A stretch of DNA of 64,000 nt from an uncultured Gammaproteobacteria bacterium (GTDB taxonomy: Bacteria > Patescibacteriota > Patescibacteriia > UBA1558 > UBA10009), in the NCBI GenBank assembly GCA_964588165.1, contig CAZPMS010000001.1:27303-91302 (forward strand), in the 5' to 3' direction. The position numbers and the translations under genes were made by a program. The notes under the pieces were generated by a model that saw only the letters and a program-made list of their open reading frames with translations, was not told the DNA's origin and ran no database searches. Positions 13,392 through 48,892 of this stretch are shown piece by piece (position 1 is the first letter of the stretch; each line of letters begins with the position of its first letter).

Positions 13392-14090
13392 TTATTTTTT
13401 CTTTAATAAAAACCTAGCCAATTCCAGATCAAAGTTATCATTAATATCTACAGATTTTTCGGCCGGCATAATATAAGGCACAGTCTTTTTACCAAAGAGG
13501 CTGTTTTTTAACAACACCGAACGCTTAGTTAAATACAAGCCGCCGTTCCGTTTAAACATTTTTGGGTAATCCTGCCTGCGCATGCCTTCTTTCTCTTTAG
13601 AAACGTAATCTTTTAACAGGCCGTTCTTAATTACTTTTAATTTCGCCGGATGGAAATCAGATAATTCATATACACTTGTTACCGAATCTGCCTTATGTTT
13701 GGCAGCAAGTTTGATAGATTCATCAATATTTTTACCTGATAAAAAAGGATTTGTTGGCTGCAGACAGATGATATAATCGTATTTAGTTTTGTTTAGTTTT
13801 TCCATTTCTTTTAGCCCATGAACTAAAACATCAATTGATTTTGCAGTATTAGATGCCAATTTTTTAGGCCTAATAAAAGGCACCTTGGCTTTATATTGTT
13901 CGGCAACCTTTTTAATCTTAATATCATCCGTAGAGACAATTACCTCATCAGTAAGCTTACTGGCTAAGGCAGCTTTAATTATATAAGAAATTAACGGCTG
14001 GCCGTTTACTTTAACAATATTTTTATAAGGAATGCTTTTTGAGCCTCCTCTGGCCGTAATAATGGCTAAAATTTTTTTATTTTTTATCAT
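13392..14090 (-). CDS. Acylneuraminate/nonulosonate cytidylyltransferase (CMP-NulO synthetase, CTP_transf_3)
   Basis: ILAIITARGGSKSIPYKNI N-terminus typical of NeuA/LegF/PseF. Confidence 0.85.
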   Translation of the reverse strand: MIKNKKILAIITARGGSKSIPYKNIVKVNGQPLISYIIKAALASKLTDEVIVSTDDIKIKKVAEQYKAKVPFIRPKKLASNTAKSIDVLVHGLKEMEKLNKTKYDYIICLQPTNPFLSGKNIDESIKLAAKHKADSVTSVYELSDFHPAKLKVIKNGLLKDYVSKEKEGMRRQDYPKMFKRNGGLYLTKRSVLLKNSLFGKKTVPYIMPAEKSVDINDNFDLELARFLLKKK

Positions 14091-15234
14091 AAAAACTTTT
14101 CTGAGTGTATAAATTTATATTTTCTAAAATATTAATTATTTTTTCACTAGTATTTAGTTGGTAAAAATAATTATCCTGTTCATATTTGCCATGTTCAACC
14201 TGAAAATCAATGCCTGCTTTAATCTCATCTGCTAAATAATTAACCTGTTTAACATTTTTACCTTGGTAGCGATTATTCTGCCTATTACCCACTAAAATAT
14301 AAGGAGTTCCCAGATAAGAACATTCTTTTATGCCGGCTGATGAATTACCAATTAAACACGTAGTTCTTTTTAATAAATTCAAAAATTGTTCGGCTGGTAA
14401 GTGGCCAATAAATCTGATATTTTGCGGGCTATTTTCTTTAATGTAATCTTTAATAGACAGGGTAACATCATTGTTGCCGGCATCAATATTTGGGGCAAAC
14501 CAGAGAGTGGGCATATTTTTATTATCAACTGCTTTAAGAATTTCTTTAACATGTTTATAATTATCTTCTTCTGAAGTAACAGGATGCTGCATAACCATTA
14601 GAAAAGGTTTAACTACATCAACTTCTGCTCCTTTGCCGTTTTTATTAACAAATGAAAAGTCAGTAATCTCTGATAGATAATTTAGGTATTCAATATCTAA
14701 AGAACCAACATTAGAAACATAGTTTGGATTCTCGCCCATAGCTAAAACCCTTTGTTTGGATTTTTCGTTAGTTACAAAATGAATATGGGACAGTTTAGTA
14801 ATGGCATGCCGTACACTTTCATCAATATTGCCGGAAACATCACCGCCTTCTATATGGACGATAGTTTTATTCATATAAGCTGCCACAATAGCAGCTGCCA
14901 GCATTTCGTACCTATCCCCTCTTACCACCACAAATTTTGGATTTAGTTTTTGAATAGCTTTAGAAAGTTTTAAAATTATTTTGCCGGTTATCTGGGACAT
15001 GGCCAAATTATCGCCCTTGCCAATATTAACTACCAACTGTTTATTTACTTTAAAACCTTCATCGGCCAGTTCTTTTAAAACATTGCCGTGCTTTTCCATT
15101 AAAGCCGATCCGCCAATTACCAACTGCAGTTTTAAATTATAATTTGGCAGCAATAATTTTAACAGGTGTTTGCATCTGGCAAAATGCACCCGGCTGGTTA
15201 TTACAAAACAGATTTTTTTAGGATTATTTTTCAT
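14077..15234 (-). CDS. UDP-N-acetylglucosamine 2-epimerase, hydrolysing (NeuC/LegG family)
   Basis: HIEGGDVSGNIDESVRHAITKLSHIHF core motif of non-reversible 2-epimerases. Confidence 0.85.
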   Translation of the reverse strand: MKNNPKKICFVITSRVHFARCKHLLKLLLPNYNLKLQLVIGGSALMEKHGNVLKELADEGFKVNKQLVVNIGKGDNLAMSQITGKIILKLSKAIQKLNPKFVVVRGDRYEMLAAAIVAAYMNKTIVHIEGGDVSGNIDESVRHAITKLSHIHFVTNEKSKQRVLAMGENPNYVSNVGSLDIEYLNYLSEITDFSFVNKNGKGAEVDVVKPFLMVMQHPVTSEEDNYKHVKEILKAVDNKNMPTLWFAPNIDAGNNDVTLSIKDYIKENSPQNIRFIGHLPAEQFLNLLKRTTCLIGNSSAGIKECSYLGTPYILVGNRQNNRYQGKNVKQVNYLADEIKAGIDFQVEHGKYEQDNYFYQLNTSEKIINILENINLYTQKSFYDKK

Positions 15235-15236
15235 AA

Positions 15237-16064
15237 TTATTTCCCCCAGCGGCCAATATAAAACAGCCGATTGTTTTCTTCTTCTTCAGAAAGCTGCCGA
15301 TGTTCTTCACCAAATAATGATTTATTATCTATAGCAACCTTTTTAAGCTCTTCAGGATTTTTAGCCAGCTCAATAATTTTTTTTAAGCCATTTGTATCTA
15401 CTGAAACCGGCTGGTCTTTTGTTTGCCAGCTTCTATCCAGTATATAGTGCCTTTCCAAAAAATCAACTCCAATATGCATGGCAATGGCGCTGGCCCTAAA
15501 ATCATCACCTGCAGAATGGTCGCTGTAGCCAACTTGTGGCGCTAAGGTCCTTAACCAATTAATCCTGTTTAAATTGAATTGATCATCTTTAATTGGATAT
15601 TTAGAAACACAATGAAGCAAAGCAAAATTTTTAGCTTTAGCTTTTAAAATTTCAGTGGTTTTTATAACCTCTTCGTCATAATGCATGCCGGTTGAAACAA
15701 TAATATGTTCAAATTTTTTAGCTAAATTTTCCAAAAGTTCATAGTTAGCACATTCCGCACTTCCCACTTTAATATACTTAAGGCCCAAGCTTCCTAAAAA
15801 ATTTACTGAACCGGAATTAAAACAGGTGGTTAAAAATTCTATACCTGCTTTTTTAGCTTCAGCCATTAGCTCCATATGAGCTTCTTCGGAAAGTTCAAAC
15901 TTAGACATTTCATCAGCTTGCCCTCTGGTGTTATCTTCGGCTTTCCATGATTGGAATTTTATAAAATCGGCTCCAACTTCTTTAGCCTGATGGATCATTT
16001 CTTTAGCAATTGATAGATCACCTTTATGATTAGCACAGGCATCTGCAATAATTTTTAATTTCAT
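15237..16064 (-). CDS. NeuB-family nonulosonic acid synthase, short form without C-terminal SAF domain
   Basis: ADACANHKGDL...GADFIKFQSW TIM-barrel NeuB signature. At 275 aa it ends before the usual ~60-aa antifreeze-like SAF domain. Confidence 0.8.
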   Translation of the reverse strand: MKLKIIADACANHKGDLSIAKEMIHQAKEVGADFIKFQSWKAEDNTRGQADEMSKFELSEEAHMELMAEAKKAGIEFLTTCFNSGSVNFLGSLGLKYIKVGSAECANYELLENLAKKFEHIIVSTGMHYDEEVIKTTEILKAKAKNFALLHCVSKYPIKDDQFNLNRINWLRTLAPQVGYSDHSAGDDFRASAIAMHIGVDFLERHYILDRSWQTKDQPVSVDTNGLKKIIELAKNPEELKKVAIDNKSLFGEEHRQLSEEEENNRLFYIGRWGK

Positions 16065-16065
16065 A

Positions 16066-16764
16066 CTATTTATTCTTTCTTAAAAAGTAACATAATTTAT
16101 CGGAAAAAAATTCACTTTTTGGGTGCTTAATTTTTATTTTAGCAAAAATCCAAAATCCCGGACGTTTTCTTTCTCTATAAATTGCTTTTTCTACTTTAAA
16201 ATTCTTAAGAAGCATCATAAAAATATCTTTGGGAATAAAAGAGATATGATTATGAAGTTTACGGCGCCTGTAATCTGATTTATGATAGCCCTCTATTTTA
16301 TTTCTGAATAAAAATTTTAGCCTGCTATAAAAATTCCAGCCATTGGGCATAGAAATAATAAATAAACCGCCCGGTTTTAAAACTCTATCCACTTCACGCA
16401 GGTGATTAAAAGGATTTTCTAAATGTTCAATTAACTGGAACGAAGTAACTACCTCAAAGCTGTTATCGGCAAATGGTAATTTTTCAAAACTCAAATCCAC
16501 TTGGTAGAAAGGTTTTTGTTTTTCGTGAACCCGGTAGTCATCAATATCAACCATTTTAATTTTATTTTGCTTGAATTTTTCAGAAAGTACCTTGCCAAAT
16601 AAACCACTGCCGCAGCCCAAATCCAAAATCTCTAGATCATTAGATAGCTTGCTGATCTCTTGCCAAAATTCATCTCGGCCATAAACCCAGGAATTAAGCT
16701 TGGTTAAAGACTTTTTATATTCCTCAAAATTATCGGCTAATTCTTCTTTGCTAAAATATTTCAT
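16066..16764 (-). CDS. Class I SAM-dependent methyltransferase
   Basis: LDLGCGSGLFG motif I. Start placed at M10 (16764) so that it abuts rather than overlaps the upstream gene's stop. Confidence 0.75.
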   Translation of the reverse strand: MKYFSKEELADNFEEYKKSLTKLNSWVYGRDEFWQEISKLSNDLEILDLGCGSGLFGKVLSEKFKQNKIKMVDIDDYRVHEKQKPFYQVDLSFEKLPFADNSFEVVTSFQLIEHLENPFNHLREVDRVLKPGGLFIISMPNGWNFYSRLKFLFRNKIEGYHKSDYRRRKLHNHISFIPKDIFMMLLKNFKVEKAIYRERKRPGFWIFAKIKIKHPKSEFFSDKLCYFLRKNK

Positions 16765-17570
16765 TACTTTTTGCCTACCAAAAAATGGCACTGTGACATT
16801 AAATAATTAGTTTTGTAAGGCTGTTTTAAAAAGACTCTTCTTAAACCAACCCAAGCCTTCCAAACCTTTGTAACTTTTTTATCCCATTTTATGCTCATAG
16901 GGGCAAATAAAGGAACGGGATTGGCATTTACCGTGTAACAATCTTTAAAGCCAGCTTCCTCAGCTTTCTTTCTATAAACTGACGGTTGGTCATTATTCCT
17001 GTAATAATCACTCTGCAATTTGGCTACCGGCTGGAAGATTTTTTTGAATAATTTGTAAACTTTATTTATTTCTTGAATAGAAAATTTGCCCGGCACGTTC
17101 ATGGATATCATAAGCCCGCCCGGTTTTAAAACCCGGTATTGCTCTTTAATTATCTGCTGATAATTCTCCAGGTGTTCAAGCAGACCCATGGAAATGGTTA
17201 AATCAAAGCTATTGTCTTCAAATGGCAATTTTGCTGAATCACCCACCATAAAAGTTCCATCTTGATTATATTTTTTAAAATTATTTTTAGCCAGCTCAAT
17301 GGCTTCATCTGATAAATCCAATAAAGTCATTTTTACGCCATCATAATCAGATAAATAAAGTGAAATGGTTCCCCTGCCACAACCCAGTTCTAAACCTGAT
17401 TCAATTTTTTTATCGCCAATAAATGACCTTATTAATTTGTGGTAGTTAACAAAAGTCAGTTGACGCTGGGTTATTGGCTTAAAACCTTTGGGCACAAATA
17501 AATCAGTTTCTTCAAACTTATCTTTATCCAAGGTTTTTTGCCATTTATCTGAAAATTGCTTATTATCCAT
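16764..17570 (-). CDS. Class I SAM-dependent methyltransferase (second, distinct paralog)
   Basis: LELGCGRGTISLYL motif I. Start placed at the internal Met (M21) just after the stop of the dehydrogenase gene. Confidence 0.75.
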   Translation of the reverse strand: MDNKQFSDKWQKTLDKDKFEETDLFVPKGFKPITQRQLTFVNYHKLIRSFIGDKKIESGLELGCGRGTISLYLSDYDGVKMTLLDLSDEAIELAKNNFKKYNQDGTFMVGDSAKLPFEDNSFDLTISMGLLEHLENYQQIIKEQYRVLKPGGLMISMNVPGKFSIQEINKVYKLFKKIFQPVAKLQSDYYRNNDQPSVYRKKAEEAGFKDCYTVNANPVPLFAPMSIKWDKKVTKVWKAWVGLRRVFLKQPYKTNYLMSQCHFLVGKK

Positions 17571-18519
17571 TCTTGAAATGTTTCTTAATCTTATTAGCAA
17601 TAAACACCTCTGTTTTAGCCCATGACTCATAGGTAGCTCCGCCTAGATGATGAACCAATAATAAATTACGATTGGCTTTGGCGAATTTAACCATATGATT
17701 GCTAAGTAAATTCTTTTTAATTTTATGTTCGTTCCTAATTACATCTGTAGCAGCACCAGCCAGCCAGCCGTTTTTTAGGCCTTTTAATAATGCCTTTTCG
17801 TCAATCAACTCACCTCGGGCTGTATTAATAAACAAAGCATTGCTTTTCATCATTTTAAAATGGCGTTCCTTAACCATATCTTCAGTTTTATCTGTCAGCA
17901 AGACATGGCAGGAAAGAACATCTGACTTCTTAAATAAATCATTCATGAAAACTTGCTTAACTTTGGCCTTGGTAAATTCTGACTTTTTAAGGTGAGGATC
18001 ATAGGCTATTACTTCCATGCCAAAAGCTTTTCCGTACGTGGCAACTTTTTTACCCAATCTGCCCAGTCCTAAAATACCTAAAACCCGGCCGTTTAATTCA
18101 TAACCGGCATTAGTATCTCTTTCCCACTTACCCTTTTTAAGTGTTTCAAAACTCCAAGGGATATTTCTGATTAAAGCCAGAAGTAATCCCCAAGTAAGTT
18201 CGGCCGTAGCATGAACACCAGATAGAAATTTTGTATCACCCCTTAAGCTGGCCACAGTAACATTCTTTTTCTCAGCAGCTTTTAGATCAATATGATTCAA
18301 GCCAGTGGTATTAGTGCCTATAACTTTAAGATTAGGAAACTGATCCATAAATTTCTTATTTATCATATTTTCCAGTTTAATAACCAAAATTGTAATTTTT
18401 TTGCCAATAGCTTTATTTTTTTTATACTGGTCCCAAGTATAAACGCGGCCGATTTTTTTATAAATATCGGTGGCGGCTTTGGAATAATACTCTGGTTCGG
18501 CAATTAATGTATGTTCCAT
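17563..18519 (-). CDS. D-isomer-specific 2-hydroxyacid dehydrogenase (NAD-binding)
   Basis: GILGLGRLGKKVA Rossmann, catalytic R/E/H region (NTARGELIDEKAL...HHLGGAT). Confidence 0.8.
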   Translation of the reverse strand: MEHTLIAEPEYYSKAATDIYKKIGRVYTWDQYKKNKAIGKKITILVIKLENMINKKFMDQFPNLKVIGTNTTGLNHIDLKAAEKKNVTVASLRGDTKFLSGVHATAELTWGLLLALIRNIPWSFETLKKGKWERDTNAGYELNGRVLGILGLGRLGKKVATYGKAFGMEVIAYDPHLKKSEFTKAKVKQVFMNDLFKKSDVLSCHVLLTDKTEDMVKERHFKMMKSNALFINTARGELIDEKALLKGLKNGWLAGAATDVIRNEHKIKKNLLSNHMVKFAKANRNLLLVHHLGGATYESWAKTEVFIANKIKKHFKNG

Positions 18520-18543: not shown

Positions 18544-19920
18544 TTATGATATTTTTTCTACCTCTTTGTTCACAAATTTAGCCATTCTCTCACCGGCCCG
18601 GCCGTCAAACTGGCCATATTGCTGCTTAATCATGGCCTGTCTGCCTGCTTTATCAGTTTCTGGATTTTGAATATAAAGATTGATGGTTTTTATAAGCTCA
18701 TCAAAATTGTAAGATAACTTAGTTCCTCCAGTTGAAAATAATTTAGCGTTATGAGTTTTTATATAAATCCATTCCACAAATTTACGTCCTTTAGCTGGCC
18801 TGTCATCAAAAACAATATTTATAAGCGGTAGATCAAATGCAGCTCCATCTATATTTAAAGTTGAACCGTAATTCATCATTACTTCTGCATAATAAAGTGA
18901 GTTGGCAAAATGGCGCATATCATCTTTAGTAAATTCCCAATCTTTCCTGCCCACACCCCAGTCATTTGCAGCACCCGGATTAAAATAGTTGCCGGGCTTA
19001 TCATATTTAACAACCGGATCATTTAGATTATATTGAGTCATATCTTCATCATCTGTTGGCGCGAACCTGACTAAAATCTGCATATCTTTAGGAAGCTGCC
19101 CATTAATTATCTCATTTTTTAGATCTTTAATGAGATTTTGCCAAGACCATTTTAAGGAATTAACCGGCGGACAAAACAATAAAAACTTTTTACTGGGATC
19201 AAGCCCGACTTTTTTACAAAAATCTTCCTTGCTGTCTGGCTGGTAGTTCACATAATAATCAAAGTGCGGCATACCAACCACTTCTATATCTTTATTTTTC
19301 ATGTTTGACCATTTTAAAGCTTCAGACTTTACATAATTGTTATGGACAACCAATTTATCAGGCAAAATTCTCATAATTCCACGGGTAGATAGATTATCCC
19401 AGGAATTTACCACAGCTACAGACTTTACTTGGCGTTTTTTAGCTTCCCTTAACATGGCCATATTTTCTTTGCCATAAATATGCGGGCAAAAAACTAAATC
19501 TGGTTTATATTTTTCAAAATATGGGCCAAAAAAATTATCAGACATTACTTGCAAATATTTTTTGTAATATTTTTTCCTGGCGCACGGGATAATGCTGAGA
19601 ATTCTGATGGCAATTGACTTTAATAAATATTTGAACGGATTTTTGGCGGACATCTTCTGTTTTATAAAATTGGTTTTGGAATCCAAAAATAAATAGCTTT
19701 TATTGTTAATTTTTAGAGCATCTTTATTATCGGTATGGAAATCTACCGGTTCTAAAATTAAATTTTCTTGTTTGAATTCTTCAGCATAAAACTTAGCCTT
19801 TATTTTAGGATAAAATACCACCACCCTGTGACCGGCAGCTAAAATATTTCCTAAAACTGAAGTTCTTAGAATGTTTCTGGCCACATGGCCGAAGAATATG
19901 GGAATAAAAATGGTTTTCAT
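18544..19920 (-). CDS. Uncharacterised GT-B-like (MurG/PseG-like GH-x-x-RN N-terminus) protein, paralog 1 of 3; candidate glycosyl- or nonulosonate transferase
   Basis: 458 aa. Shares conserved blocks with ORFs 19997-21394 and 32293-33669: MKT(I/L)FIP(I/V)F.G...RN, KPDLVF, (S/G)WDNL, DIEVVG.P.FDYY. Confidence 0.5.
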   Translation of the reverse strand: MKTIFIPIFFGHVARNILRTSVLGNILAAGHRVVVFYPKIKAKFYAEEFKQENLILEPVDFHTDNKDALKINNKSYLFLDSKTNFIKQKMSAKNPFKYLLKSIAIRILSIIPCARKKYYKKYLQVMSDNFFGPYFEKYKPDLVFCPHIYGKENMAMLREAKKRQVKSVAVVNSWDNLSTRGIMRILPDKLVVHNNYVKSEALKWSNMKNKDIEVVGMPHFDYYVNYQPDSKEDFCKKVGLDPSKKFLLFCPPVNSLKWSWQNLIKDLKNEIINGQLPKDMQILVRFAPTDDEDMTQYNLNDPVVKYDKPGNYFNPGAANDWGVGRKDWEFTKDDMRHFANSLYYAEVMMNYGSTLNIDGAAFDLPLINIVFDDRPAKGRKFVEWIYIKTHNAKLFSTGGTKLSYNFDELIKTINLYIQNPETDKAGRQAMIKQQYGQFDGRAGERMAKFVNKEVEKIS

Positions 19921-19923
19921 AAA

Positions 19924-20017
19924 TTCTAATAGCTACGCTGACGTCGCTGACAGACGCGAACCGCGAACTAATTTAGTCTGCGGTCAGCGGTTTGCGCTAG
20001 TTCGCGCTGTCTGCGTT
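19924..20017. repeat. GC-rich imperfect palindromic intergenic element (family C, AGCTACGCTGAC head); encodes the last ~7 codons of the downstream paralog
   Basis: agctacgctgacgtcgctgacagacgcgaaccgcgaacta...tagttcgcgctgtctgcg inverted repeat; ~60% GC within a 30% GC genome. Confidence 0.6.
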
Positions 20018-21394
20018 ATTACTTATTTTATTTAAATAATCTAAAACATAATTGCCAACTCGCTGGCTACACTGCCCGTCAAACTTCCAGGTTAGTTCTT
20101 TAAGGATCCTGCTCCTACCCTCCTTTTCCTGCCTTGGATTTTTTAAGTATGAATTAATTTGTTTGACCAACTCCTGGTTGCTTCTGGCCATCTTCATGCA
20201 ATTTGCCTTAAGTACCGGCTGGTAATGGTCATTTTTATAAATATACCTGATGCTGATTTTAGTTGAATCAGGTTTAACAACATCATAGTCAATATTTATA
20301 ACCGGCTTATCTAAAGCAGCCGCATCAACTGTCATAGTGGAAGCAAAGTTGATGGTAACTGATGAATAGTAAATTGAATCAGCCAAGTGCTGCATGTCGG
20401 CTGTTAAAAACTCCCAGTCGTTACGGTAATTGTCTAAAGGAAACTGTTTGCCCGGCACATCATAAATAATATTTTGGTTTGATTTGAATTCACCCAGCTC
20501 TTTATTATAACTTGGCGCCAGCCTAACCAGCAGTTTTATTTTTTCATCAATCTCACCATTACTAATAGCTTGATCTAAATATTTAATAATTTCTTTAACA
20601 CTATCGCGGTAATGTCCAAAAAAAGGCGCAAATAAAATTAATTTATATTCTGGGCTAACGCCGATTTTTTTATAAAAATCTTCTTTGGCAGAAGGCTTAT
20701 AGCCAACATAATAATCAAAAATAGGCACGCCCGATGTGTAAATATCTTTTTCTTTCATATCAGCATACTTTATAGCTTCCTCCTTCATTAAATCAGTATG
20801 AACAATAATTTTATCTGGCCTAACCCTTACTACGCCTTTAGAGGTTAAATTATCCCAGCCTCTAACCATGGCAATTTTAGGCACCTTTTTCTTTTTAGCT
20901 TGTTTTAAAAACAAAGCGTCGGCCGGCGCTAAAACATCTGTTACAAAAACTAGGTCCGGCTTATACTTATCAAAATAGTTGCCAAATATTTTTTCCGGTA
21001 CTACCACAAAATCCAGCCAACGTACGAAATTTCTAAGCATCCGACTGCCCGAAAAAACTTTAGACAAAATTCTGCCCAGAGCATATCTTAATTTATTTTT
21101 ATCGGATGAATATTCAATTAACTGCAAACTTTTTTTAGACTGGGTATTTAAAAAACTTTTAGCCAAAAAATCAAAAAAGAATTCTACTTTACCTTTTTTA
21201 TGTTTCCATTCTACAGGCTCAAAAATGACATTCTTAAAGTGTCCATATTTTTCTTTAAAGAATTTTTCCTTGAGCGGTGGAACAAAACAAATAATCTTGA
21301 TATTTGGATTATCAAGAATTGGTTTAAGCATGTCTGTTATAAAAAGATTTCTGGTGCACATGCCATGGAACACGGGAATGAATAATGTTTTCAT
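19997..21394 (-). CDS. Uncharacterised GT-B-like protein, paralog 2 of 3
   Basis: 465 aa; same conserved blocks as paralog 1. Confidence 0.5.
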   Translation of the reverse strand: MKTLFIPVFHGMCTRNLFITDMLKPILDNPNIKIICFVPPLKEKFFKEKYGHFKNVIFEPVEWKHKKGKVEFFFDFLAKSFLNTQSKKSLQLIEYSSDKNKLRYALGRILSKVFSGSRMLRNFVRWLDFVVVPEKIFGNYFDKYKPDLVFVTDVLAPADALFLKQAKKKKVPKIAMVRGWDNLTSKGVVRVRPDKIIVHTDLMKEEAIKYADMKEKDIYTSGVPIFDYYVGYKPSAKEDFYKKIGVSPEYKLILFAPFFGHYRDSVKEIIKYLDQAISNGEIDEKIKLLVRLAPSYNKELGEFKSNQNIIYDVPGKQFPLDNYRNDWEFLTADMQHLADSIYYSSVTINFASTMTVDAAALDKPVINIDYDVVKPDSTKISIRYIYKNDHYQPVLKANCMKMARSNQELVKQINSYLKNPRQEKEGRSRILKELTWKFDGQCSQRVGNYVLDYLNKISNNADSAN

Positions 21395-21468: not shown

Positions 21469-23361
21469 TTATATTTTAATTTTCTCAGCAATAGATCCTC
21501 CGTCAAGTTTAAAATGTTTTAATACCTCAATATGCCCGCCACTTTCCGGGAATCTATCCAAACCAAACCTGATCAATTTTTTATTCAAACCTGATTGATT
21601 AATAATATTTAAAATCTCATCACCTTGTCCGCCTGCCAACATATGGTCATCAATATGAACTAACTGTTTTACATCCTTGATTTCATTAATCAGCCACTCA
21701 CTATCTATATTATTTAACCACGGGATATTGATAACTTTAACTTGCTTACCATCTTTTTCAAGTATGTCGGCTGCTTCCATTGCCATAGAGAGCATAATTG
21801 GTCCATAGGCCATAATGGCTATATCTTTACCATCTTTTAATGCAAAACCTTTGCCTGGCTCAATTTTATAACCTTCAGGCAGTTTTATTTCCCTAAAGCC
21901 TGGACAAATTGCCAGCCGTAAATAACTTGGAGTTTTAACCTCATTAGCCAGATATTTAATGGCCAGTTTTGACTCTTCATAATTACAGGGTTCAAAAATT
22001 TTCATTTCATGAATAGTCCTCATTAAACCAATATCCCTAACTGCCTGATGTGATTTACCAGGAATGGCTGGAATTAAACCGGCTAAATGCCCAACATAAA
22101 TAACCTGGCTATATTCTGTTGAGTTATTAAAAATTTGTTCATTGGCTCTGGCTGCCAAAAAGGCAGCAAAGGTATTTACTACCGGCAAATATCCTTGACG
22201 AGCAAGGCCACCGGCAATACCCACCATATCTTGTTCAGCAATGCCAACTTCCAAAAAATTATCAGGATAGTTCTCTTCAATTACTTTTATGCCGCAATCA
22301 ACGGCTAAATCACCATCTATAGCAATTATTTTTTTATTTTCTTTAACCAATTCAACCAAACCTTCGGAGTAGCCGCTTTTAACATCTGTATCGCACATTT
22401 TAATTTGAGCTCGCTCAAACTCCTTAGGAATTTCCGGAAACTCAATTTGATTATTACCTAAAAGATCTTTAATTCTATCATCAACTTCGCAAATTGCAGC
22501 TTCGTATTCTTCTTGGTTAGGGACTTTATTGTGCCATAAATACAAGCCGTCCTTTTTTAAAGCCTCTGGATGTTCCATAAAGGAAATTCCTTTGCCTTTT
22601 ATGGTATCTAAAATCACGGCCTTAGGCTTGCCATTAGAATAATCAATTTTCTCAAATATCTTAATTAAATCACCCATGTCATTGCCTTTTACCTCAATTA
22701 CTTCCCAGCCAAAAGCTTTTATTTTTTCTTCCAGCGGCGGCATATCTAAAATATCAGTTGTCAGCAAATCGGACTGGACTTTATTTTTATCCACCAAAAC
22801 TACTAAATTATCTAATTTCCAAGCAGGTGCTGATTGGAAACCTTCCCAGTTTTGCCCTTCTTCCAGTTCCCCATCCCCTACCATGACAAAAACTTTATTG
22901 GGTTTGTTTTCTTTTTTAAAAGCCAAGGCATGTCCTTTACCTTTGGAAATGCCCATTGCCAAAGCACCGGTATTGGCCTCAACTCCCGGAGTGGCTATAT
23001 CTACATGACCGGCCGGCCCGCCAAGTTGTCTGAATTTAAATAAATCATCATATGGCACTAAACCAACTGAGGCTAAGATTGAGTTCATCATTGGCCCGGC
23101 ATGCCCTTTGGATAGAATGAAGATATCACGTTCAGGATCATCTTTATCATTTGGATTAATCTTCATTTCCTTGTGATAAAGTAAAGTCATCACATCCGCA
23201 GCAGAAAGTGATGTACCCAGATGCCCTGTTCCTGGAACCATGACCACGCCTAAAATATTATGGCGTACCATTTCAGCCATAATTTGTAGTTTTTGTTCTT
23301 CTGACAAGTCAAAACTTTTAACTTTGTCAAAATCTTGTTTGGTGAAGAATATATTGTTCAT
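21469..23361 (-). CDS. Transketolase, N-terminal (TPP) and C-terminal (Pyr) halves fused in one 630-aa protein
   Basis: GHLGTSLSAADVMT, GDGELEEGQNWEG (TPP-binding), then EVGIAEQDMVGIAGGLA pyrimidine domain. Confidence 0.85.
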   Translation of the reverse strand: MNNIFFTKQDFDKVKSFDLSEEQKLQIMAEMVRHNILGVVMVPGTGHLGTSLSAADVMTLLYHKEMKINPNDKDDPERDIFILSKGHAGPMMNSILASVGLVPYDDLFKFRQLGGPAGHVDIATPGVEANTGALAMGISKGKGHALAFKKENKPNKVFVMVGDGELEEGQNWEGFQSAPAWKLDNLVVLVDKNKVQSDLLTTDILDMPPLEEKIKAFGWEVIEVKGNDMGDLIKIFEKIDYSNGKPKAVILDTIKGKGISFMEHPEALKKDGLYLWHNKVPNQEEYEAAICEVDDRIKDLLGNNQIEFPEIPKEFERAQIKMCDTDVKSGYSEGLVELVKENKKIIAIDGDLAVDCGIKVIEENYPDNFLEVGIAEQDMVGIAGGLARQGYLPVVNTFAAFLAARANEQIFNNSTEYSQVIYVGHLAGLIPAIPGKSHQAVRDIGLMRTIHEMKIFEPCNYEESKLAIKYLANEVKTPSYLRLAICPGFREIKLPEGYKIEPGKGFALKDGKDIAIMAYGPIMLSMAMEAADILEKDGKQVKVINIPWLNNIDSEWLINEIKDVKQLVHIDDHMLAGGQGDEILNIINQSGLNKKLIRFGLDRFPESGGHIEVLKHFKLDGGSIAEKIKI

Positions 23362-23380: not shown

Positions 23381-24490
23381 CTAAAAAAATTCACATTCAG
23401 ATTGTTCAACTGAATAAGGCTGAATAAAACTTGTTTTTAAGGTTTCAACGAAACTATTCTCTCTAAATGGCTTAATGATTGATGGAAATTCACCACCAAT
23501 TAAAATTGTATCCTTATTTATATCAGTATCGACAAGATACTCTTCTTCTACATCTTTATCGCCTCCCGATACTATTTTGTAATTTACTATTTTATAAATT
23601 TTGGATATTGAAAATGGCTTGCCATCTATTTCTTTTTTATAGTTTATATCAACTTTAATAAAAAAATCTGTATTACTTGTATTTTCCCTTATATTACTCA
23701 TTATTGAATTTAAATCATTAAAATCAATTGAAAAAGGAATTTCTTCAAGTGATTTAAGGTTATATAGTTTATTATCTAAAATACTAGTAGTTAATCGATT
23801 CTCTTCAAATTTAAAATCTGGATTATTTTCATAACTCACATAAGCAAAAGGGCAAATCGAAAGTAGTTGTGATTCTTCATCTATATCTATGCGCTTTTCA
23901 AGCATAATCATGTTAATATCAATGTCTTTAAGTCCACCTAAAAAATTATTTTTTAGTACAAAATTTGCTGTTGAGCTTGATATCTGACTGTGTCCTAAAA
24001 ATGGTAATTTATTTTTATTTAAACCACTATATTCTTTTATAGATATTGAAACTTCAGGTATAGCGCTTAGTTCTAACGATTGTTGAGTTTGTTTTAAGGA
24101 AGATTCACTTAGTTCTAACGATTGTTGAGTTTGTTTTAAGGAAAAAAAATTAATAGATAACCCTACAATTGCAACAACTAATAAATATATTGCAATTTTT
24201 ATTGCTCTGCTACTTGATTTATTAGCATTATCTAGTTGCTCAAATTCAAGGAGTTTAAACCTACCTTCAGTTGAAATTGTATAAAGATTTTCTTCGCCAT
24301 TGTCCGTTTTTTGAGTTCTTCCTAAATTTTGAAGTAAACTTTTTTCATTTATTAGCTTTCCAAAAAATAACCCTTTTTCATTTTGATTAAAATTTAAATC
24401 ATCTAATAAATTATTACAAAGAAACTCATTGTGCTTATGAGCATATTTTAGTATTTCAATATGAATATTTTTTCTTATTTTGCTATTCAT
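23381..24490 (-). CDS. Hypothetical membrane protein: cytoplasmic N-domain, one TM, extracytoplasmic C-domain; contains a 39-bp perfect tandem duplication
   Basis: Very AT-rich (~25% GC). TM IKIAIYLLVVAIVGLSINFF. Tandem repeat SLKQTQQSLELSE x2 = DNA 24085-24165. Confidence 0.6.
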   Translation of the reverse strand: MNSKIRKNIHIEILKYAHKHNEFLCNNLLDDLNFNQNEKGLFFGKLINEKSLLQNLGRTQKTDNGEENLYTISTEGRFKLLEFEQLDNANKSSSRAIKIAIYLLVVAIVGLSINFFSLKQTQQSLELSESSLKQTQQSLELSAIPEVSISIKEYSGLNKNKLPFLGHSQISSSTANFVLKNNFLGGLKDIDINMIMLEKRIDIDEESQLLSICPFAYVSYENNPDFKFEENRLTTSILDNKLYNLKSLEEIPFSIDFNDLNSIMSNIRENTSNTDFFIKVDINYKKEIDGKPFSISKIYKIVNYKIVSGGDKDVEEEYLVDTDINKDTILIGGEFPSIIKPFRENSFVETLKTSFIQPYSVEQSECEFF

Positions 24491-24962: not shown

Positions 24963-25454
24963 TTATTCTAAATCAAATGGTCCGTAAAATCCACCTCCAG
25001 CAGATGCCCATTCTTGAATATAAAAAACCTTACCACAAATAATAGCCAATCGTGATACACCCACCCCAATCATCATTTTATCTTTATCTCTTTTATAATC
25101 TTCAGGATTTAAATCTGAACAACTTAATATTTTTATTTCATGATTATTTATACATTTATAGCCACCCCACCTATCTAATGATGTAGGTAAAATATTTCTA
25201 TCACTACCATAAAAACCTTCATCCATATTAATATGCTTTTTATAATCTACAGGATCAATTTGTGTTTTATAAGAAAAATTAATATCAAGGGAGCAATAAG
25301 TTTTTATTTTGGCCGATAAATTTTCATTATCTATAATCTGAAGTGTTGAGTTTTTTGGCACATAAAACATTTTTTTTATGGTTGGATAAAAGTAGATGAC
25401 TAAACCTGCAATAATAACTAGAATTATTAGTAATATAAAATTTTGTTTTTTCAT
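24963..25454 (-). CDS. Hypothetical secreted/membrane-anchored protein (163 aa, N-terminal TM, 6 Cys)
   Basis: MKKQNFILLIILVIIAGLVIYFY signal-anchor; no recognisable domain. Bracketed by near-identical 44-bp direct repeats. Confidence 0.6.
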   Translation of the reverse strand: MKKQNFILLIILVIIAGLVIYFYPTIKKMFYVPKNSTLQIIDNENLSAKIKTYCSLDINFSYKTQIDPVDYKKHINMDEGFYGSDRNILPTSLDRWGGYKCINNHEIKILSCSDLNPEDYKRDKDKMMIGVGVSRLAIICGKVFYIQEWASAGGGFYGPFDLE

Positions 25455-28789: not shown

Positions 28790-29611
28790 TTACCAAGCAG
28801 TCCAACCGCCGTCTATTACTAAATTAGCACCTGTCATATAACTGGAAGCATCACTGGCCAAAAAGATTACTCCACCATTTAATTCATCTTTTTTTGCCAT
28901 TCTGCCCAAAGGAGTTCTTTTGTTATATTCTTCCAAAAATGATTCGTCTTGATTATTAAAAACTCCTCCTGGAGTTAAAGTGTTAACCCTAACGCCATCT
29001 TTTGCCCAGTAAGTTGCCAAATATCTGGTTAAGTTAACTAAAGCTGATTTTGTGGCGCTGTAAGATGCAGGTTTAGTAAATTTTTCCGGCATGCTTTCAT
29101 AAATCCTTTGATCAGGAGAAACTAACCCATAGGTTGAACAAATATTTATAATGCTGCCTTTTTTATTGGCTGCCATCCTGGCACCTATAACCTGGCAGGG
29201 TAAAAAAACGCCAGTTAAATTGACTTCCAAAACTTTATTCCAAATTTCTAAAGGATAACCCTCAAAAGTTGCTGTAGCTTCACTGCCAGAACCTGGTGGG
29301 TTATCCAGTGCCGCACAGTTAATTAAAACTTCCGGAATGCCTAAGTCTGCTTCCACCTTCTTTAAGGTTTCTGAAAGTTGATCTTTATTAGTAACACTGA
29401 CTTTATAATATTTAACATTATTAACTTCTTTAAGGTCACCAGTTAACTCATCACTAATATCAAAAACAGCCACTTTGGCGCCTGCATCAGCTAAGGCTTT
29501 GGAAAAATTTGAACCCAGTTGCCCATTACCGCCAGTTATAATTGCTACTTTATTTATTAGACTGAAGATGTTTTCGATATAATTCATATTATTTAAATTA
29601 CCAATTAACAA
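28790..29611 (-). CDS. SDR-family oxidoreductase
   Basis: AIITGGNGQLGS Rossmann, YSATK catalytic YxxxK. The start could alternatively be M9 (29587). Confidence 0.85.
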   Translation of the reverse strand: MLIGNLNNMNYIENIFSLINKVAIITGGNGQLGSNFSKALADAGAKVAVFDISDELTGDLKEVNNVKYYKVSVTNKDQLSETLKKVEADLGIPEVLINCAALDNPPGSGSEATATFEGYPLEIWNKVLEVNLTGVFLPCQVIGARMAANKKGSIINICSTYGLVSPDQRIYESMPEKFTKPASYSATKSALVNLTRYLATYWAKDGVRVNTLTPGGVFNNQDESFLEEYNKRTPLGRMAKKDELNGGVIFLASDASSYMTGANLVIDGGWTAW

Positions 29612-30800: not shown

Positions 30801-30906
30801 ATTTCTTTAATAATTACTACTTAAAAAGCATGGGTAGCAATGCCCTGCGCTTTCCATTTTTTATAATAGAAATGGTGCAGGGTAAATATTACTATAACAA
30901 AAAACC

Positions 30907-31569: not shown

Positions 31570-31572
31570 ATA

Positions 31573-42874: not shown

Positions 42875-43026
42875 TCATCAAGCTTCCTAACCGTTCTCTA
42901 CTTTGAGGGCGGTTTTTTCTTACCCTGCCCTGCCGATGAGGCGGGTTGACTTTTTCATAGAAATCTATCTATAATTAACTTAAAGGAGTGGCACTGTTCA
43001 TATTAATAGCTAAAACGGAGAGAAAC

Positions 43027-44582: not shown

Positions 44583-44646
44583 CACCCCACGACCCGCTCC
44601 CTACGGTCGCCTGCTCGCGGGGACCCCGCCTTTTTTGGAAAATTTT

Positions 44647-48882: not shown

Positions 48883-48892
48883 ATTATTTTAA

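What the first reader, a model, noticed from the sequence alone, without database searches (positions are those of the whole stretch)
13392..16064. Two independent nonulosonic acid (sialic-acid-like) modules with an unusually rich tailoring set
Module 1 (13392-16064): cytidylyltransferase, hydrolysing UDP-GlcNAc 2-epimerase (NeuC), and a 275-aa NeuB lacking the SAF domain. Module 2 (29700-32289): a 366-aa NeuB with SAF, a HAD phosphatase and a second cytidylyltransferase. In between lie two class I methyltransferases, a tandem FkbM methyltransferase, a 2-hydroxyacid dehydrogenase, an SDR, an ALDH and a fused transketolase. This predicts either two different CMP-nonulosonates or a heavily modified one (methylated, oxidised or chain-extended). 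The HAD next to NeuB-2 suggests a 9-phosphate route (KDN/Neu5Ac-9-P type), and the SAF-less NeuB-1 is atypical.
Basis: partly seen in the sequence, partly recalled or inferred. Interest (0 to 1): 0.65.

Follow-up and report, generated by a model that had tools for sequence, protein, structure and literature searches.

The report
Transketolase-linked sialic-acid-like sugar cassette
This cell-surface sugar island really holds two separate sialic-acid-type pathways. The second belongs to a widespread, undescribed gene cassette, also carried by phages, in which an altered transketolase probably cuts or rebuilds the sugar's side chain.

Summary
In detail: every gene named is present at the stated coordinates. 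The two NeuB copies are 29% identical and the two cytidylyltransferases 35%, so they are not recent duplicates.

The "tailoring" genes split into two conserved modules.
- **Module 1:** 2-hydroxyacid dehydrogenase, methyltransferase(s), SAF-less NeuB, NeuC and a cytidylyltransferase. It recurs in L197 and L198.
- **Module 2:** NeuB(SAF), SDR, cytidylyltransferase and a transketolase, with HAD phosphatase, ALDH and FkbM as optional extras. It occurs at GC 33-68%, in candidate-phylum (CPR) MAGs, a Streptomyces natural-product cluster and a phage lineage.

Supporting evidence for module 2:
- All 13 cassette-type transketolase loci with at least 3 kb upstream carry NeuB. None of 33 ordinary transketolase loci do.
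- The transketolase keeps its catalytic residues but has lost all five phosphate- or acceptor-binding residues.
- The SDR resembles ElaC, which acts at C8 of CMP-nonulosonates.
- NeuB2 lacks the arginine that binds the N-acetyl group.

Best inference (unproven): a Kdn-9-phosphate-type sugar is oxidised at C8, cleaved by the transketolase and oxidised by ALDH to a CMP-activated 7-carbon diacid. I found no literature on this. SAF-less NeuB is a known clade with a solved structure (6NCS).

The parts
13392..14090 (-). CT1: CMP-ulosonate cytidylyltransferase of module 1
   Evidence: PF02348 E 1.8e-25. Best NCBIfam family is PseF at 166 bits, below its cut-off of 205.7. 35% identical to CT2.
14077..15234 (-). 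NeuC: hydrolysing UDP-GlcNAc 2-epimerase (makes ManNAc)
   Evidence: TIGR03568 scores 347 bits, above its cut-off of 235.9. PF02350 also matches.
15237..16064 (-). NeuB1: 275-aa SAF-less NeuB-family synthase
   Evidence: PF03102 only. Metal, PEP and catalytic residues are kept; E25 is Asp. Best PDB match is the 290-aa 6NCS. The clade has more than 80 clusters. Paired with NeuC in L115, L116, L197 and L198.
16066..16791 (-). MT_A: class I SAM methyltransferase (module 1; absent in L197)
   Evidence: PF08241 E 1.4e-19. 41% identical to MT_B over the core.
16764..17630 (-). MT_B: class I SAM methyltransferase, conserved partner of NeuB1
   Evidence: PF08241 E 1.3e-23. A methyltransferase sits in the same position in L197 and L198.
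17563..18519 (-). D-2-hydroxyacid dehydrogenase, conserved partner of NeuB1; role unexplained
   Evidence: PF02826 and PF00389. Best NCBIfam families are PGDH and glyoxylate reductase, both below cut-off. Same position in L197 and L198; also present near NeuB1 in L116.
18544..19920 (-). TagF-like GT-B 1: candidate ulosonate transferase or polymerase
   Evidence: PF04464 at 28 bits. No PDB sequence hit. Homologues lie next to NeuB genes in L032, L033 and L116.
19997..21394 (-). TagF-like GT-B 2
   Evidence: PF04464 at 42.5 bits. Paralogue of the other two (alignment A2).
21469..23361 (-). TK*: cassette-type transketolase with a remodelled substrate channel
   Evidence: Three transketolase domains. 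Closest solved relative is human TK 4KXU. Catalytic H37, H77, H110, H258 and E366 are kept. R318, S345, H416, D424 and R474 become K, D, L, P and I. The same signature is found in 24 loci and in 71 of the top 150 cluster representatives.
23381..24490 (-). unk369: membrane ORF with a short tandem peptide repeat; probably not part of the pathway
   Evidence: No Pfam or PDB hit and no homologue in any fetched locus. Absent from L007 and L197, where ALDH and TK are adjacent.
24963..25454 (-). unk163: small ORF with an N-terminal membrane helix; probably not part of the pathway
   Evidence: No Pfam hit and no homologue in any fetched locus.
25603..27090 (-). ALDH: accessory aldehyde dehydrogenase of the cassette
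   Evidence: PF00171 at 553 bits. Best NCBIfam families are alpha-ketoglutaric semialdehyde and 2,5-dioxovalerate dehydrogenases, below cut-off. Present in the cassette in L007, L040, L041, L043, L047 and L197.
27218..28774 (-). Fused double FkbM methyltransferase (accessory)
   Evidence: PF05050 matches two stretches. These are two separate genes in L031. A single FkbM gene follows the cassette in L007, L096, L121 and L134.
28790..29611 (-). ElaC-like SDR, always next to the cassette NeuB
   Evidence: PF13561. Best PDB hit is 6UH2 at 164 bits; the next hit scores 111. 6UH2 served as the search model for ElaC (PMC13656337). The Ser160-Tyr184 loop is long (24 residues). The published ElaC substrate residues map by offset.
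29700..30800 (-). NeuB2: NeuB+SAF synthase with altered sugar-specificity residues
   Evidence: PF03102 plus PF08666. Below the NeuB and PseI cut-offs. At the N. meningitidis NeuB positions, R314, F288 and E134 become S, K and D; the catalytic residues are kept.
30907..31569 (-). HAD-IA sugar-phosphate phosphatase (accessory)
   Evidence: PF13419. Best NCBIfam family is hexitol phosphatase HxpB, below cut-off. Orthologues in L007 and L031 are 60% identical. A KdsC-like HAD takes its place in L042 and L043.
31573..32289 (-). CT2: cytidylyltransferase of the cassette
   Evidence: PF02348. 81-82% identical to the copies in L007 and L031. A CT lies directly upstream of TK* in L035, L041, L042, L043, L047, L075, L096 and the phages.
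32293..33669 (-). TagF-like GT-B 3, syntenic with the cassette
   Evidence: PF04464 at 38.6 bits. 68% identical orthologue beside CT2 in L031. AF2 model has pLDDT 95.8 and a generic GT-B fold with TM about 0.55 to the nearest solved structures.
33666..35054 (-). Wzx-type flippase of the island
   Evidence: PF01943 and PF13440. Syntenic in L031.

Best explanation
The island encodes two independent CMP-ulosonic-acid pathways, each with its own conserved partner genes.

Module 1 (2-hydroxyacid dehydrogenase, methyltransferases, SAF-less NeuB1, NeuC, CT1):
- NeuC makes ManNAc.
- NeuB1 condenses ManNAc with PEP to give a Neu5Ac-type sugar.
- CT1 activates that sugar with CMP.
- The sugar is further modified, probably methylated. 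The role of the dehydrogenase is unknown.

Module 2 is the local copy of a widespread, undescribed cassette whose core is NeuB(SAF) + ElaC-like SDR + cytidylyltransferase + a specialised transketolase (TK*). Proposed mechanism (inferred, not shown):
1. NeuB2 condenses PEP with a non-N-acetylated hexose 6-phosphate, for example mannose-6-P, giving Kdn-9-P.
2. The HAD phosphatase frees the C9 hydroxyl.
3. CT2 makes the CMP-sugar.
4. The SDR oxidises C8, creating a terminal HOCH2-CO-CHOH ketol, which is the motif a transketolase accepts as donor.
5. TK* cleaves the C7-C8 bond, removing a two-carbon glycolaldehyde unit and leaving a C7 aldehyde.
6. ALDH oxidises the aldehyde to a carboxylate.

The product would be a CMP-activated 3-deoxy-hept-2-ulosaric acid: a seven-carbon diacid related to Dha and equivalent to a periodate-truncated sialic acid. 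It may be O-methylated by the FkbM domains and transferred by the TagF-like GT-B enzymes. Where ALDH is absent (phages, L042, L033), the aldehyde may be reduced or handled by another enzyme. In Streptomyces a class III aminotransferase sits in that position.

Confidence by layer:
- Two independent modules: 0.9.
- SDR, TK* and ALDH belong functionally to the NeuB2 pathway: 0.85.
- TK* remodels the carbon skeleton of the sugar rather than doing housekeeping: 0.7.
- The specific C8-oxidation and C7-C8 cleavage route: about 0.4.
For: Shown by tools:

(1) Cassette conservation.
- L007, a Patescibacteria MAG, has FkbM-CT2(82%)-HAD-NeuB2(71%)-SDR-ALDH-TK(72%) directly beside the same Epim/Bac_transf/Wzy/TPR/S8 genes as the window, with no module 1.
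- L031, L033/L034, L041, L042, L043, L047, L096 and L197 show NeuB-SDR-(ALDH)-CT-TK at GC 0.33-0.67.

(2) Association.
- All 13 cassette-type TK loci with at least 3 kb upstream carry NeuB.
- None of 33 canonical TK loci from the same scans carry NeuB or a CT.

(3) TK* signature.
- The catalytic and ThDP residues are kept.
- The positions equivalent to human TK R318, S345, H416, D424 and R474 are all replaced (x-D-L/Y/M-P/T-x) in every cassette TK and retained in every ordinary TK.
- 71 of the top 150 50%-identity cluster representatives carry the signature.

(4) Mobility as a unit.
- A phage lineage carries NeuB-SDR-CT-TK*(-FkbM) between the large terminase subunit and the portal gene (L096, L117-L123, L134, L149).

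(5) The SDR is ElaC-like.
- Its best PDB hit, 6UH2, stands well above the rest. 6UH2 was the molecular-replacement model for ElaC, the C8 reductase of CMP-8-keto-legionaminic acid (PMC13656337).
- The window SDR has the same elongated Ser-Tyr loop.
- The published ElaC residues S145, Y147, I156, Y157, Y168, K172, Q205, F209 and Y213 correspond by offset to S160, Y162, I171, Y172, Y184, K188, Q221, F225 and Y229. Most are conserved in the other cassette SDRs.

(6) NeuB2 specificity.
- R314S, F288K and E134D occur in 114-118 of 118 homologues, and R314 is replaced in 8 of 9 cassette NeuBs (7 Ser, 1 Ile or Ala), while the catalytic residues are intact.
- The one exception, L107, sits beside NeuC and a split TK.

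(7) Non-orthologous HAD phosphatases sit beside NeuB.

(8) The variable gene near TK* is an aldehyde-using enzyme type: ALDH in the window, L007, L040, L041, L043, L047 and L197, and a class III aminotransferase in Streptomyces L199.

From established knowledge:
- The five replaced TK residues bind the substrate phosphate and the acceptor C2-OH in the yeast and human enzymes.
- His77 and His110, which are kept, bind the donor C1-OH.
- 8-keto-Kdn or 8-keto-Neu5Ac has the D-threo ketol configuration that transketolase donors require (my derivation).
- The closest ALDH families oxidise the terminal aldehyde of 2-keto-3-deoxy acids.
Against: - No enzyme activity or glycan structure is known for any member. 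The substrate of NeuB2 is inferred only from residue changes.
- ElaC itself only reduces the 8-keto group. The oxidation is done by the Gfo/Idh/MocA enzyme ElaA, which the window lacks, so the SDR would have to run in the unfavourable direction.
- ALDH and HAD are absent from the minimal phage cassette, so the diacid cannot be the universal product.
- A transketolase needs an acceptor for the two-carbon unit, and none is evident.
- The Streptomyces locus has no cytidylyltransferase, so the chemistry does not require a CMP-sugar.
- A pathway in which TK* acts before NeuB predicts the same gene set.
Confidence: 0.42

Rival explanations
1. TK* acts before NeuB and supplies an unusual aldose. The SDR oxidises a free polyol or sugar acid, such as gluconate to 5-keto-gluconate, to a terminal ketol. 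TK* cleaves it to a four-carbon aldose or uronate. NeuB2 condenses that with PEP to give a C7 ulosonic or ulosaric acid, which CT2 activates. This is analogous to the AHBA pathway, in which a dedicated transketolase and a HAD phosphatase feed a PEP-condensing enzyme.
For: - The minimal phage cassette (NeuB, SDR, CT, TK*) would then be a complete linear pathway.
- The Streptomyces locus has no CT.
- Lower-ranked SDR relatives include gluconate 5-dehydrogenase, mannitol dehydrogenase and sorbitol dehydrogenase.
- Lys at NeuB position 288 could bind a carboxylate.
- The AHBA precedent comes from my own knowledge, not from a tool.
Against: - The SDR is clearly closest to the ElaC search model and keeps the residues reported to bind the nonulosonate in ElaC. 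This points to a NulO-sized substrate.
- The roles of ALDH and the HAD phosphatase are not explained.
- NeuB-family enzymes are not known to use C4 substrates.
Confidence: 0.18
2. TK* works in the synthetic direction or as an epimerase. It either adds a two-carbon ketol to an aldehyde-bearing ulosonate, giving an 8-keto product that the ElaC-like SDR reduces as ElaC does, or it cleaves and re-forms the C7-C8 bond to invert stereochemistry. The result is a nine-carbon or longer sugar with unusual side-chain configuration.
For: - The SDR would run in the same direction as ElaC, as a keto reductase.
- The donor-binding histidines of TK are kept.
Against: - No enzyme in the core cassette can generate the required aldehyde acceptor.
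- ALDH would destroy such an aldehyde.
- The usual phosphorylated ketose donors should need the phosphate-binding residues that TK* has lost.
Confidence: 0.12
3. Module 2 simply makes CMP-Kdn or CMP-Neu5Ac by the 9-phosphate route. The transketolase, ALDH and SDR are co-located metabolic genes that supply precursors (pentose-phosphate intermediates, PEP) in a metabolically reduced organism, or they belong to an unrelated pathway.
For: - CPR bacteria have reduced metabolism, and gene islands can collect unrelated genes.
- ALDH and HAD are not universal in the cassette.
Against: - TK* has lost all canonical sugar-phosphate binding residues.
- The association with NeuB is 13 of 13 against 0 of 33.
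- The set travels together in phages and in organisms of GC 0.33-0.68.
- The SDR is ElaC-like.
Confidence: 0.05
4. One or both modules make a 5,7-diamino sugar (pseudaminic or legionaminic acid), as the best NCBIfam names (PseF, PseI) might suggest.
For: - Both cytidylyltransferases score best against PseF.
- NeuC homologues also serve in legionaminic acid synthesis.
- Four NAD-dependent epimerase/dehydratase genes lie in the window.
Against: - All PseF and PseI scores are below the curated cut-offs.
- No DegT-type aminotransferase or N-acetyltransferase was found among the 49 window ORFs scanned. The ORFs at 42988-43383 and 47667-48224 were not scanned.
- NeuB2 lacks the arginine shared by NeuB and PseI.
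Confidence: 0.05

Closest known systems
ElaABC, the CMP-legionaminic acid C8-epimerisation system of Acinetobacter baumannii KL49 and Vibrio vulnificus (PMC13656337)
   Same: A cytidylyltransferase plus an SDR with an elongated Ser-Tyr loop that acts at C8 of a CMP-nonulosonate through an 8-keto intermediate. The window SDR is closest to the ElaC search model 6UH2 and shares the reported substrate residues by offset. L033 also has a Gfo/Idh/MocA gene like ElaA.
   Different: - The window has no ElaA oxidase.
- The sugar is not a 9-deoxy diamino sugar.
- A transketolase and an ALDH accompany the SDR, which points to C-C cleavage rather than simple epimerisation.
Kdn-9-phosphate and Neu5Ac-9-phosphate routes (Bacteroides thetaiotaomicron Kdn-9-P synthase and phosphatase; mammalian NANS and NANP)
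   Same: A NeuB+SAF synthase beside a HAD phosphatase and a cytidylyltransferase. The synthase lacks the N-acetyl-binding arginine, as the mammalian 9-P synthase does.
   Different: - Substrate not tested.
- The phosphatase here is HAD-IA, not KdsC-like.
- Those pathways have no SDR, transketolase or ALDH.
- No reference Kdn-9-P synthase sequence was available for comparison.
Classical NeuC/NeuB/NeuA CMP-Neu5Ac pathway
   Same: Module 1 has the same three activities in one operon, and NeuC passes its equivalog cut-off.
   Different: - NeuB1 lacks the SAF domain and scores below the NeuB cut-off.
- CT1 is below the PseF cut-off (no NeuA-specific model matched).
- A 2-hydroxyacid dehydrogenase and a methyltransferase are conserved partners.
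SAF-less 'N-acetylneuraminic acid synthetase', PDB 6NCS (290 aa)
   Same: Best solved relative of NeuB1 (E 1.4e-33), with the same domain loss.
   Different: The substrate of 6NCS is not known to me. Identity is modest.
Transketolases retargeted to non-phosphate substrates, such as the sulfoquinovose-pathway sulfo-transketolase and the apiose-pathway transketolase (from my own knowledge)
   Same: The ThDP catalytic core is kept while the distal substrate-binding end is remodelled.
   Different: Those are catabolic enzymes, and none is linked to NeuB or cytidylyltransferase genes. The signature here is distinct and uncharacterised.
AHBA (aminoshikimate) pathway of rifamycin-type clusters (from my own knowledge)
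   Same: A dedicated transketolase, a HAD phosphatase and an oxidoreductase accompany a PEP-condensing enzyme inside a biosynthetic cluster.
   Different: The condensing enzyme there is a DAHP-synthase type and the transketolase is canonical. The product is an aromatic starter unit, not a CMP-sugar.

Membership tests
N-acetylneuraminate synthase (NeuB, TIGR03569) | Score above the curated equivalog cut-off (399.65 bits) | tested here: not met
   NeuB1 scores 200 bits and NeuB2 320 bits. Both pass the broader Pfam NeuB family.
N-acetylneuraminate synthase (NeuB) | SAF/AFP-like domain supplying Arg314 to bind the ManNAc N-acetyl carbonyl, and Phe288 for the hydrophobic pocket (PMC11339185) | tested here: not met
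   NeuB1 has no SAF domain. NeuB2 has Ser at 314 and Lys at 288, conserved in 114-118 of 118 homologues.
N-acetylneuraminate synthase (NeuB) | Metal, PEP and catalytic residues (K53, Q55, K129, Y186, H215, E234, H236, D247) | tested here: met
   All are present in NeuB1 and NeuB2.
Pseudaminic acid synthase PseI / cytidylyltransferase PseF | Scores above the curated cut-offs (340.25 and 205.7 bits) and accompanying PseB/C/H/G genes | tested here: not met
   PseI: 153 and 243 bits. PseF: 166 and 131 bits. No aminotransferase or acetyltransferase was found in the window ORFs scanned.
Hydrolysing UDP-GlcNAc 2-epimerase NeuC (TIGR03568) | Score above the curated cut-off (235.9 bits) | tested here: met
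   347 bits, full-length match.
Canonical transketolase | ThDP-binding and catalytic residues (human H37, H77, H110, D155, N185, H258, E366) | tested here: met
   All conserved.
Canonical transketolase | Phosphate-binding R318, S345, H416 and R474, and acceptor-binding D424 (human numbering) | tested here: not met
   K, D, L, I and P in the window. All five are replaced in all 24 cassette TKs and kept in 33 ordinary TKs. NCBIfam transketolase NF004559 scores 387 bits, below its cut-off of 488.
ElaC-like CMP-nonulosonate C8 oxidoreductase (SDR) | Elongated loop between the catalytic Ser and Tyr, and substrate residues Y147, I156, Y157, Q205, F209, Y213 (PMC13656337) | tested here: inconclusive
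   The loop is 24 residues against 23 in ElaC. All six residues match by offset from the catalytic Ser and Tyr. The best PDB hit is the ElaC search model 6UH2. The ElaC sequence itself could not be aligned.
9-phosphate route (Kdn-9-P or Neu5Ac-9-P synthase plus phosphatase) | A dedicated phosphatase next to the synthase | tested here: met
   HAD-IA in the window, L007, L031 and L033. KdsC-like HAD in L042 and L043.
9-phosphate route | The synthase uses a hexose 6-phosphate | not testable with these tools
   Needs an enzyme assay. Only indirect residue evidence exists.
TagF-type CDP-glycerol glycerophosphotransferase (PF04464) | Pfam gathering score and GT-B fold | tested here: met
   28.4, 42.5 and 38.6 bits against a cut-off of 22.1. 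The AF2 model has a GT-B fold.
TagF-type CDP-glycerol glycerophosphotransferase | Close structural or sequence similarity to TagF, and a CDP-glycerol supply (TagD) | tested here: not met
   No PDB sequence hit. TagF ranks only 45th in Foldseek, with TM about 0.5. No TagD-type gene is in the window. Homologues sit beside NeuB and CT genes instead.

The most novel reading that the evidence does not exclude
A previously unrecognised transketolase subfamily catalyses ThDP-dependent cleavage of the glycerol side chain of an 8-keto (CMP-)nonulosonate. This would be the enzymatic counterpart of periodate truncation of sialic acids. It would yield seven-carbon ulosonic or ulosaric (Dha-like) sugars that CPR bacteria, actinomycetes and a phage lineage use for surface glycans or natural products.
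Probability: 0.35. Interest if true: 0.85.

Novelty: new variant of a known kind. Interest (0 to 1): 0.72.

Why it matters
- **New sugar chemistry.** Sialic-acid-like sugars shape how bacteria are seen by hosts, phages and immune systems. All known tailoring keeps the nine-carbon skeleton. A dedicated transketolase that cuts or rebuilds that skeleton would be a new reaction for the enzyme family and a new class of bacterial surface sugar.
- **An open biosynthetic question.** As far as I know, no biosynthetic route to seven-carbon ulosaric acids such as Dha has been established. This cassette gives a concrete, testable candidate.
- **Breadth and mobility.** The cassette is small (four core genes) and mobile (phage-borne). 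It is also present in a cultured Streptomyces, so it can be tested directly.
- **CPR biology.** It shows that uncultured CPR bacteria invest in elaborate acidic surface glycans.

Tried and rejected
- **Recent duplication of NeuB or CT:** rejected at 29% and 35% identity.
- **Pse or Leg pathways:** rejected. Scores are below cut-off and the aminotransferase and acetyltransferase genes are missing.
- **Housekeeping transketolase:** rejected by the residue signature and the gene association.
- **Genome scan:** did not return the source genome, only relatives of 72% identity or less.
- **Metagenome scan:** mostly returned ordinary transketolases. These became the control set.
- **PDB sequence searches:** nothing for the TagF-like proteins or unk369.
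- **unk369 and unk163:** no homologues anywhere. They look like unrelated membrane ORFs.
- **Literature searches:** nothing relevant for nonulosonic + Patescibacteria, transketolase + nonulosonic/NeuB, or heptulosaric acid in bacteria.
- **ElaC sequence:** could not be obtained, as no supplement was held. The comparison is therefore by residue offset.
- **Cluster look-up:** gave no organism names. Taxonomy rests on the named relatives (Patescibacteria, Uhrbacteria).
- **tRNA genes:** none in the window.
- **Role of the 2-hydroxyacid dehydrogenase and methyltransferase pair of module 1:** could not be worked out.

Full report
**1. Observation**

The window is a low-GC (about 0.33) bacterial surface-glycan island. 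It holds an initiating sugar transferase, a Wzy_C-TPR protein, a Wzx flippase and many GT2/GT4 genes. From 36319 down to 13392, all genes lie on the minus strand with short gaps.

- CT1, NeuC and a 275-aa NeuB without SAF at 13392-16064.
- NeuB with SAF, a HAD phosphatase and CT2 at 29700-32289.
- Between them: two class I methyltransferases, a 2-hydroxyacid dehydrogenase, a fused transketolase, an ALDH, a two-domain FkbM methyltransferase and an SDR.

- NeuC passes its curated NCBIfam cut-off.
- Both NeuBs fall below the NeuB and PseI cut-offs.
- Both cytidylyltransferases fall below the PseF cut-off.
- NeuB1 and NeuB2 are 29% identical, and CT1 and CT2 are 35% identical, so neither pair is a recent duplicate.

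**2. Source**

The same sequence occurs in marine metagenomes, on a contig of up to 254 kb. The closest named relatives of several genes are Patescibacteria/CPR MAGs. L007, a Patescibacteria MAG, shares synteny with the genes flanking the cluster. The organism is therefore probably a CPR bacterium, though this was not shown directly.

**3. Module 1**

SAF-less NeuB proteins of 265-290 aa form a clade of more than 80 90%-identity clusters. The best solved relative of NeuB1 is the 290-aa 6NCS. NeuB1 keeps the metal, PEP and catalytic residues and ends near residue 295 of the N. meningitidis enzyme.

Its partners are conserved:
- 2-hydroxyacid dehydrogenase, methyltransferase, NeuB1, NeuC and CT recur in that order in L197 (81% NeuB1) and L198 (42%).
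- NeuB1 is paired with NeuC again in L115 and L116.

So the dehydrogenase and the class I methyltransferases belong to module 1. The simplest reading is a ManNAc-derived, Neu5Ac-type CMP-sugar that is methylated. What the dehydrogenase does remains unexplained.

**4. Module 2 is part of a conserved cassette**

- In L007 the order is FkbM, CT2 (82%), HAD (60%), NeuB2 (71%), SDR (72%), ALDH (72%), TK (72%). This block abuts the same flanking genes as in the window, with no module 1.
- L031 is syntenic from GT2 through Wzx, TagF_3, CT2, HAD, NeuB2, SDR and FkbM.
- L033/L034 hold NeuB(SAF)-SDR-TK-CT, followed by a second NeuB fused to a cupin, then HAD, a Gfo/Idh/MocA gene, NeuC and a second CT.
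- A metagenome scan with a transketolase alignment returned L041, L042, L043, L047 and L096 with NeuB-(HAD)-SDR-(ALDH)-CT-TK, at GC 0.33 to 0.67.
- In L042 and L043 a KdsC-like HAD sits beside NeuB in place of the HAD-IA of the window.

**5. The transketolase is a distinct subfamily**

It is closest to the short human-type enzyme 4KXU. Mapped on human numbering:
- The catalytic and cofactor residues H37, H77, H110, D155, N185, H258 and E366 are kept.
- R318, S345, H416, D424 and R474 are K, D, L, P and I.

From established structural work on the yeast and human enzymes, those five residues bind the substrate phosphate and the acceptor C2 hydroxyl.

- All 24 full-length cassette-type enzymes carry the pattern x-D-(L/Y/M)-(P/T)-x.
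- All 33 ordinary transketolases retrieved by the same scans keep R-S-H-D(-R).
- All 13 cassette-type loci with at least 3 kb upstream carry NeuB. None of the 33 ordinary loci carries NeuB or a cytidylyltransferase.
- In an exhaustive search of 1.84 billion cluster representatives, 71 of the best 150 hits carry the signature, and they dominate the top ranks.

**6. The cassette is mobile and self-contained**

- L096 reads small terminase subunit, large terminase subunit, NeuB, a 123-aa ORF, SDR, CT, TK*, FkbM, portal, protease, major head protein.
- Nine IMG/VR contigs of the same phage lineage (portal 50-60% identical) carry the cassette-type TK*. Six of them (L117, L119-L122, L134) show the full NeuB-SDR-CT-TK* order, some with FkbM; L119-L122 and L134 show it between the large terminase and portal genes. 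L118, L123 and L149 are cut just upstream of TK*. The TK* copies lack the C-terminal domain but carry the signature.
- The core is therefore NeuB + SDR + CT + TK*. ALDH, HAD and FkbM are accessory.
- A cultured organism also has it. On the 1.6-Mb linear replicon of Streptomyces sp. NBC_01237 the order is NeuB-SDR-TK*(signature)-RmlD-like-HAD-class III aminotransferase, with no cytidylyltransferase. The block lies inside what looks like a natural-product cluster.

**7. What the partner enzymes say**

*SDR*
- Its best PDB match, 6UH2 (164 bits), stands well above the next hit (111 bits).
- 6UH2 was the molecular-replacement model for ElaC, the SDR that reduces CMP-8-keto-legionaminic acid at C8 (PMC13656337).
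- ElaC is described as having an elongated loop between the catalytic Ser145 and Tyr168, and substrate residues Y147, I156, Y157, Q205, F209 and Y213.
- The window SDR has Ser160 and Tyr184 (a 24-residue spacing). By the same offsets it has Y162, I171, Y172, Q221, F225 and Y229, most of them conserved in the other cassette SDRs.
- This is an offset comparison, not an alignment.

*NeuB2*
- NeuB2 and its relatives keep all catalytic residues.
- They replace N. meningitidis Arg314 (contacts the ManNAc N-acetyl carbonyl; absent from the mammalian 9-phosphate synthase; PMC11339185) with Ser, Phe288 with Lys and Glu134 with Asp.
- This holds in 114-118 of 118 homologues; R314 is replaced in 8 of 9 cassette NeuBs, with L107 the exception.

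*ALDH*
- It is closest to alpha-ketoglutaric semialdehyde and 2,5-dioxovalerate dehydrogenases, which oxidise the terminal aldehyde of 2-keto-3-deoxy acids.

**8. Mechanism (inferred)**

1. A non-N-acetylated hexose phosphate plus PEP gives a Kdn-9-P-type sugar.
2. The HAD phosphatase frees C9-OH.
3. CT2 activates the sugar.
4. The ElaC-like SDR oxidises C8, giving HOCH2-CO-CHOH. With Kdn or Neu5Ac stereochemistry this has the D-threo configuration of a transketolase donor (my derivation).
5. TK* cleaves the C7-C8 bond.
6. ALDH oxidises the C7 aldehyde to a carboxylate.

The product would be a CMP-3-deoxy-heptulosaric acid. FkbM would methylate it and the TagF-like GT-B enzymes would transfer it.

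Two further observations fit an aldehyde intermediate and a substrate without phosphate:
- The variable gene near TK* is always an aldehyde-consuming enzyme type (ALDH or a class III aminotransferase).
- TK* has lost its phosphate site but kept the histidines that bind the donor C1-OH.

Weak points:
- ElaC itself is only a reductase.
- No acceptor for the two-carbon unit is evident.
- ALDH is missing from the minimal cassette.

The main rival has TK* acting before NeuB to make a four-carbon aldose, as in the AHBA pathway. That route also predicts a seven-carbon product, but it fits the ElaC-like SDR less well.

**9. The TagF-like proteins**

- They have only weak PF04464 matches and no PDB sequence hits.
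- A confident AF2 model (pLDDT 95.8) shows a generic GT-B fold. UDP-GlcNAc 2-epimerases and MshA rank ahead of TagF.
- Their homologues sit beside NeuB and CT genes in many loci.
- They are best treated as an uncharacterised family of candidate ulosonate transferases or polymerases.

**10. Comparison and novelty**

- Module 1 works like the NeuC/NeuB/NeuA pathway but fails the NeuB membership tests.
- Module 2 resembles the Kdn/Neu5Ac-9-phosphate route plus the ElaC step. Its transketolase and ALDH have no described counterpart.
- Four literature searches found nothing on it.
- I rate it a new variant of a known kind. It is a nonulosonate-type biosynthetic cluster with an unprecedented, conserved, skeleton-remodelling branch.

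**Verdict**

| Item | Assessment |
|---|---|
| Observation | confirmed |
| Mechanism | plausible but untested |

Noticed in passing
L096 1-13385; L117-L123, L134, L149: A lineage of tailed phages (portal 50-60% identical) carries the cassette. L096, L119-L122 and L134 show NeuB-SDR-CT-TK*(-FkbM) between the large terminase and portal genes. This is a phage-borne ulosonic-acid pathway. The phage TK* copies lack the C-terminal domain.
   Followed up: partly
L199 (Streptomyces sp. NBC_01237, NZ_CP108509.1 808979-830844): NeuB-SDR-TK* with an RmlD-like reductase, a HAD and a class III aminotransferase, but no cytidylyltransferase. The block sits beside P450, AMP-binding, HmaS-like dioxygenase and FMN-dehydrogenase genes and LuxR/SARP regulators. 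The trio appears to be recruited into a natural-product cluster in a cultured strain.
   Followed up: partly
window 16066-18519; L197 8040-9802; L198 8064-9890: A D-2-hydroxyacid dehydrogenase and a class I methyltransferase are conserved directly upstream of the SAF-less NeuB1-NeuC-CT genes in three species. Their role is unexplained. L116 has a different 2-hydroxyacid dehydrogenase-CT-GAPDH-HAD block near NeuB1.
   Followed up: partly
L197 6350-8037: The sister locus (NeuB1 81% identical) has a polysaccharide deacetylase and a formyltransferase inserted upstream of the dehydrogenase, and only one methyltransferase. This hints at N-deacetylation and N-formylation of the sugar in that strain.
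   Followed up: no
window 23381-24490 and 24963-25454: Two ORFs, each with a single membrane helix; one carries a tandem 'SLKQTQQSLELS' repeat. They have no homologues in any fetched locus. They sit in a low-GC stretch that splits ALDH from TK, which are adjacent in L007 and L197.
   Followed up: partly
window 27218-28774 versus L031 11922-13563: The FkbM fusion has its two domains in the opposite order to the two separate FkbM genes of L031.
   Followed up: no
window 58177-58986: Truncated UDP-glucose/GDP-mannose dehydrogenase. The start of the N-domain and the whole C-domain are missing. Probably a pseudogene remnant.
   Followed up: no
window 43779-45867, 48382-50356: CysD/CysN sulfate adenylyltransferase genes, a small P-loop kinase-like protein and a type I phosphodiesterase/sulfatase-fold protein lie inside the glycan island. 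This suggests sulfation of the glycan.
   Followed up: no
window 60888-63938: A 1016-aa ORF with no Pfam match, in a stretch where GC rises to 0.39-0.42.
   Followed up: no
L033 15030-16574: A 514-aa fusion of a SAF-less NeuB domain with a cupin domain (possibly a sugar isomerase). Separate small cupin genes lie near NeuB in L031 and L198.
   Followed up: no
L107 8504-12681; L142, L144, L146: Some loci pair a split transketolase with NeuB and SDR genes. In L142 and L144 the C-terminal subunit keeps the canonical His, Asp and Arg. In L107 the signature was not read; there the NeuB keeps Arg314 and sits beside NeuC. The link between transketolases and NeuB clusters may be broader than the cassette subfamily.
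   Followed up: no
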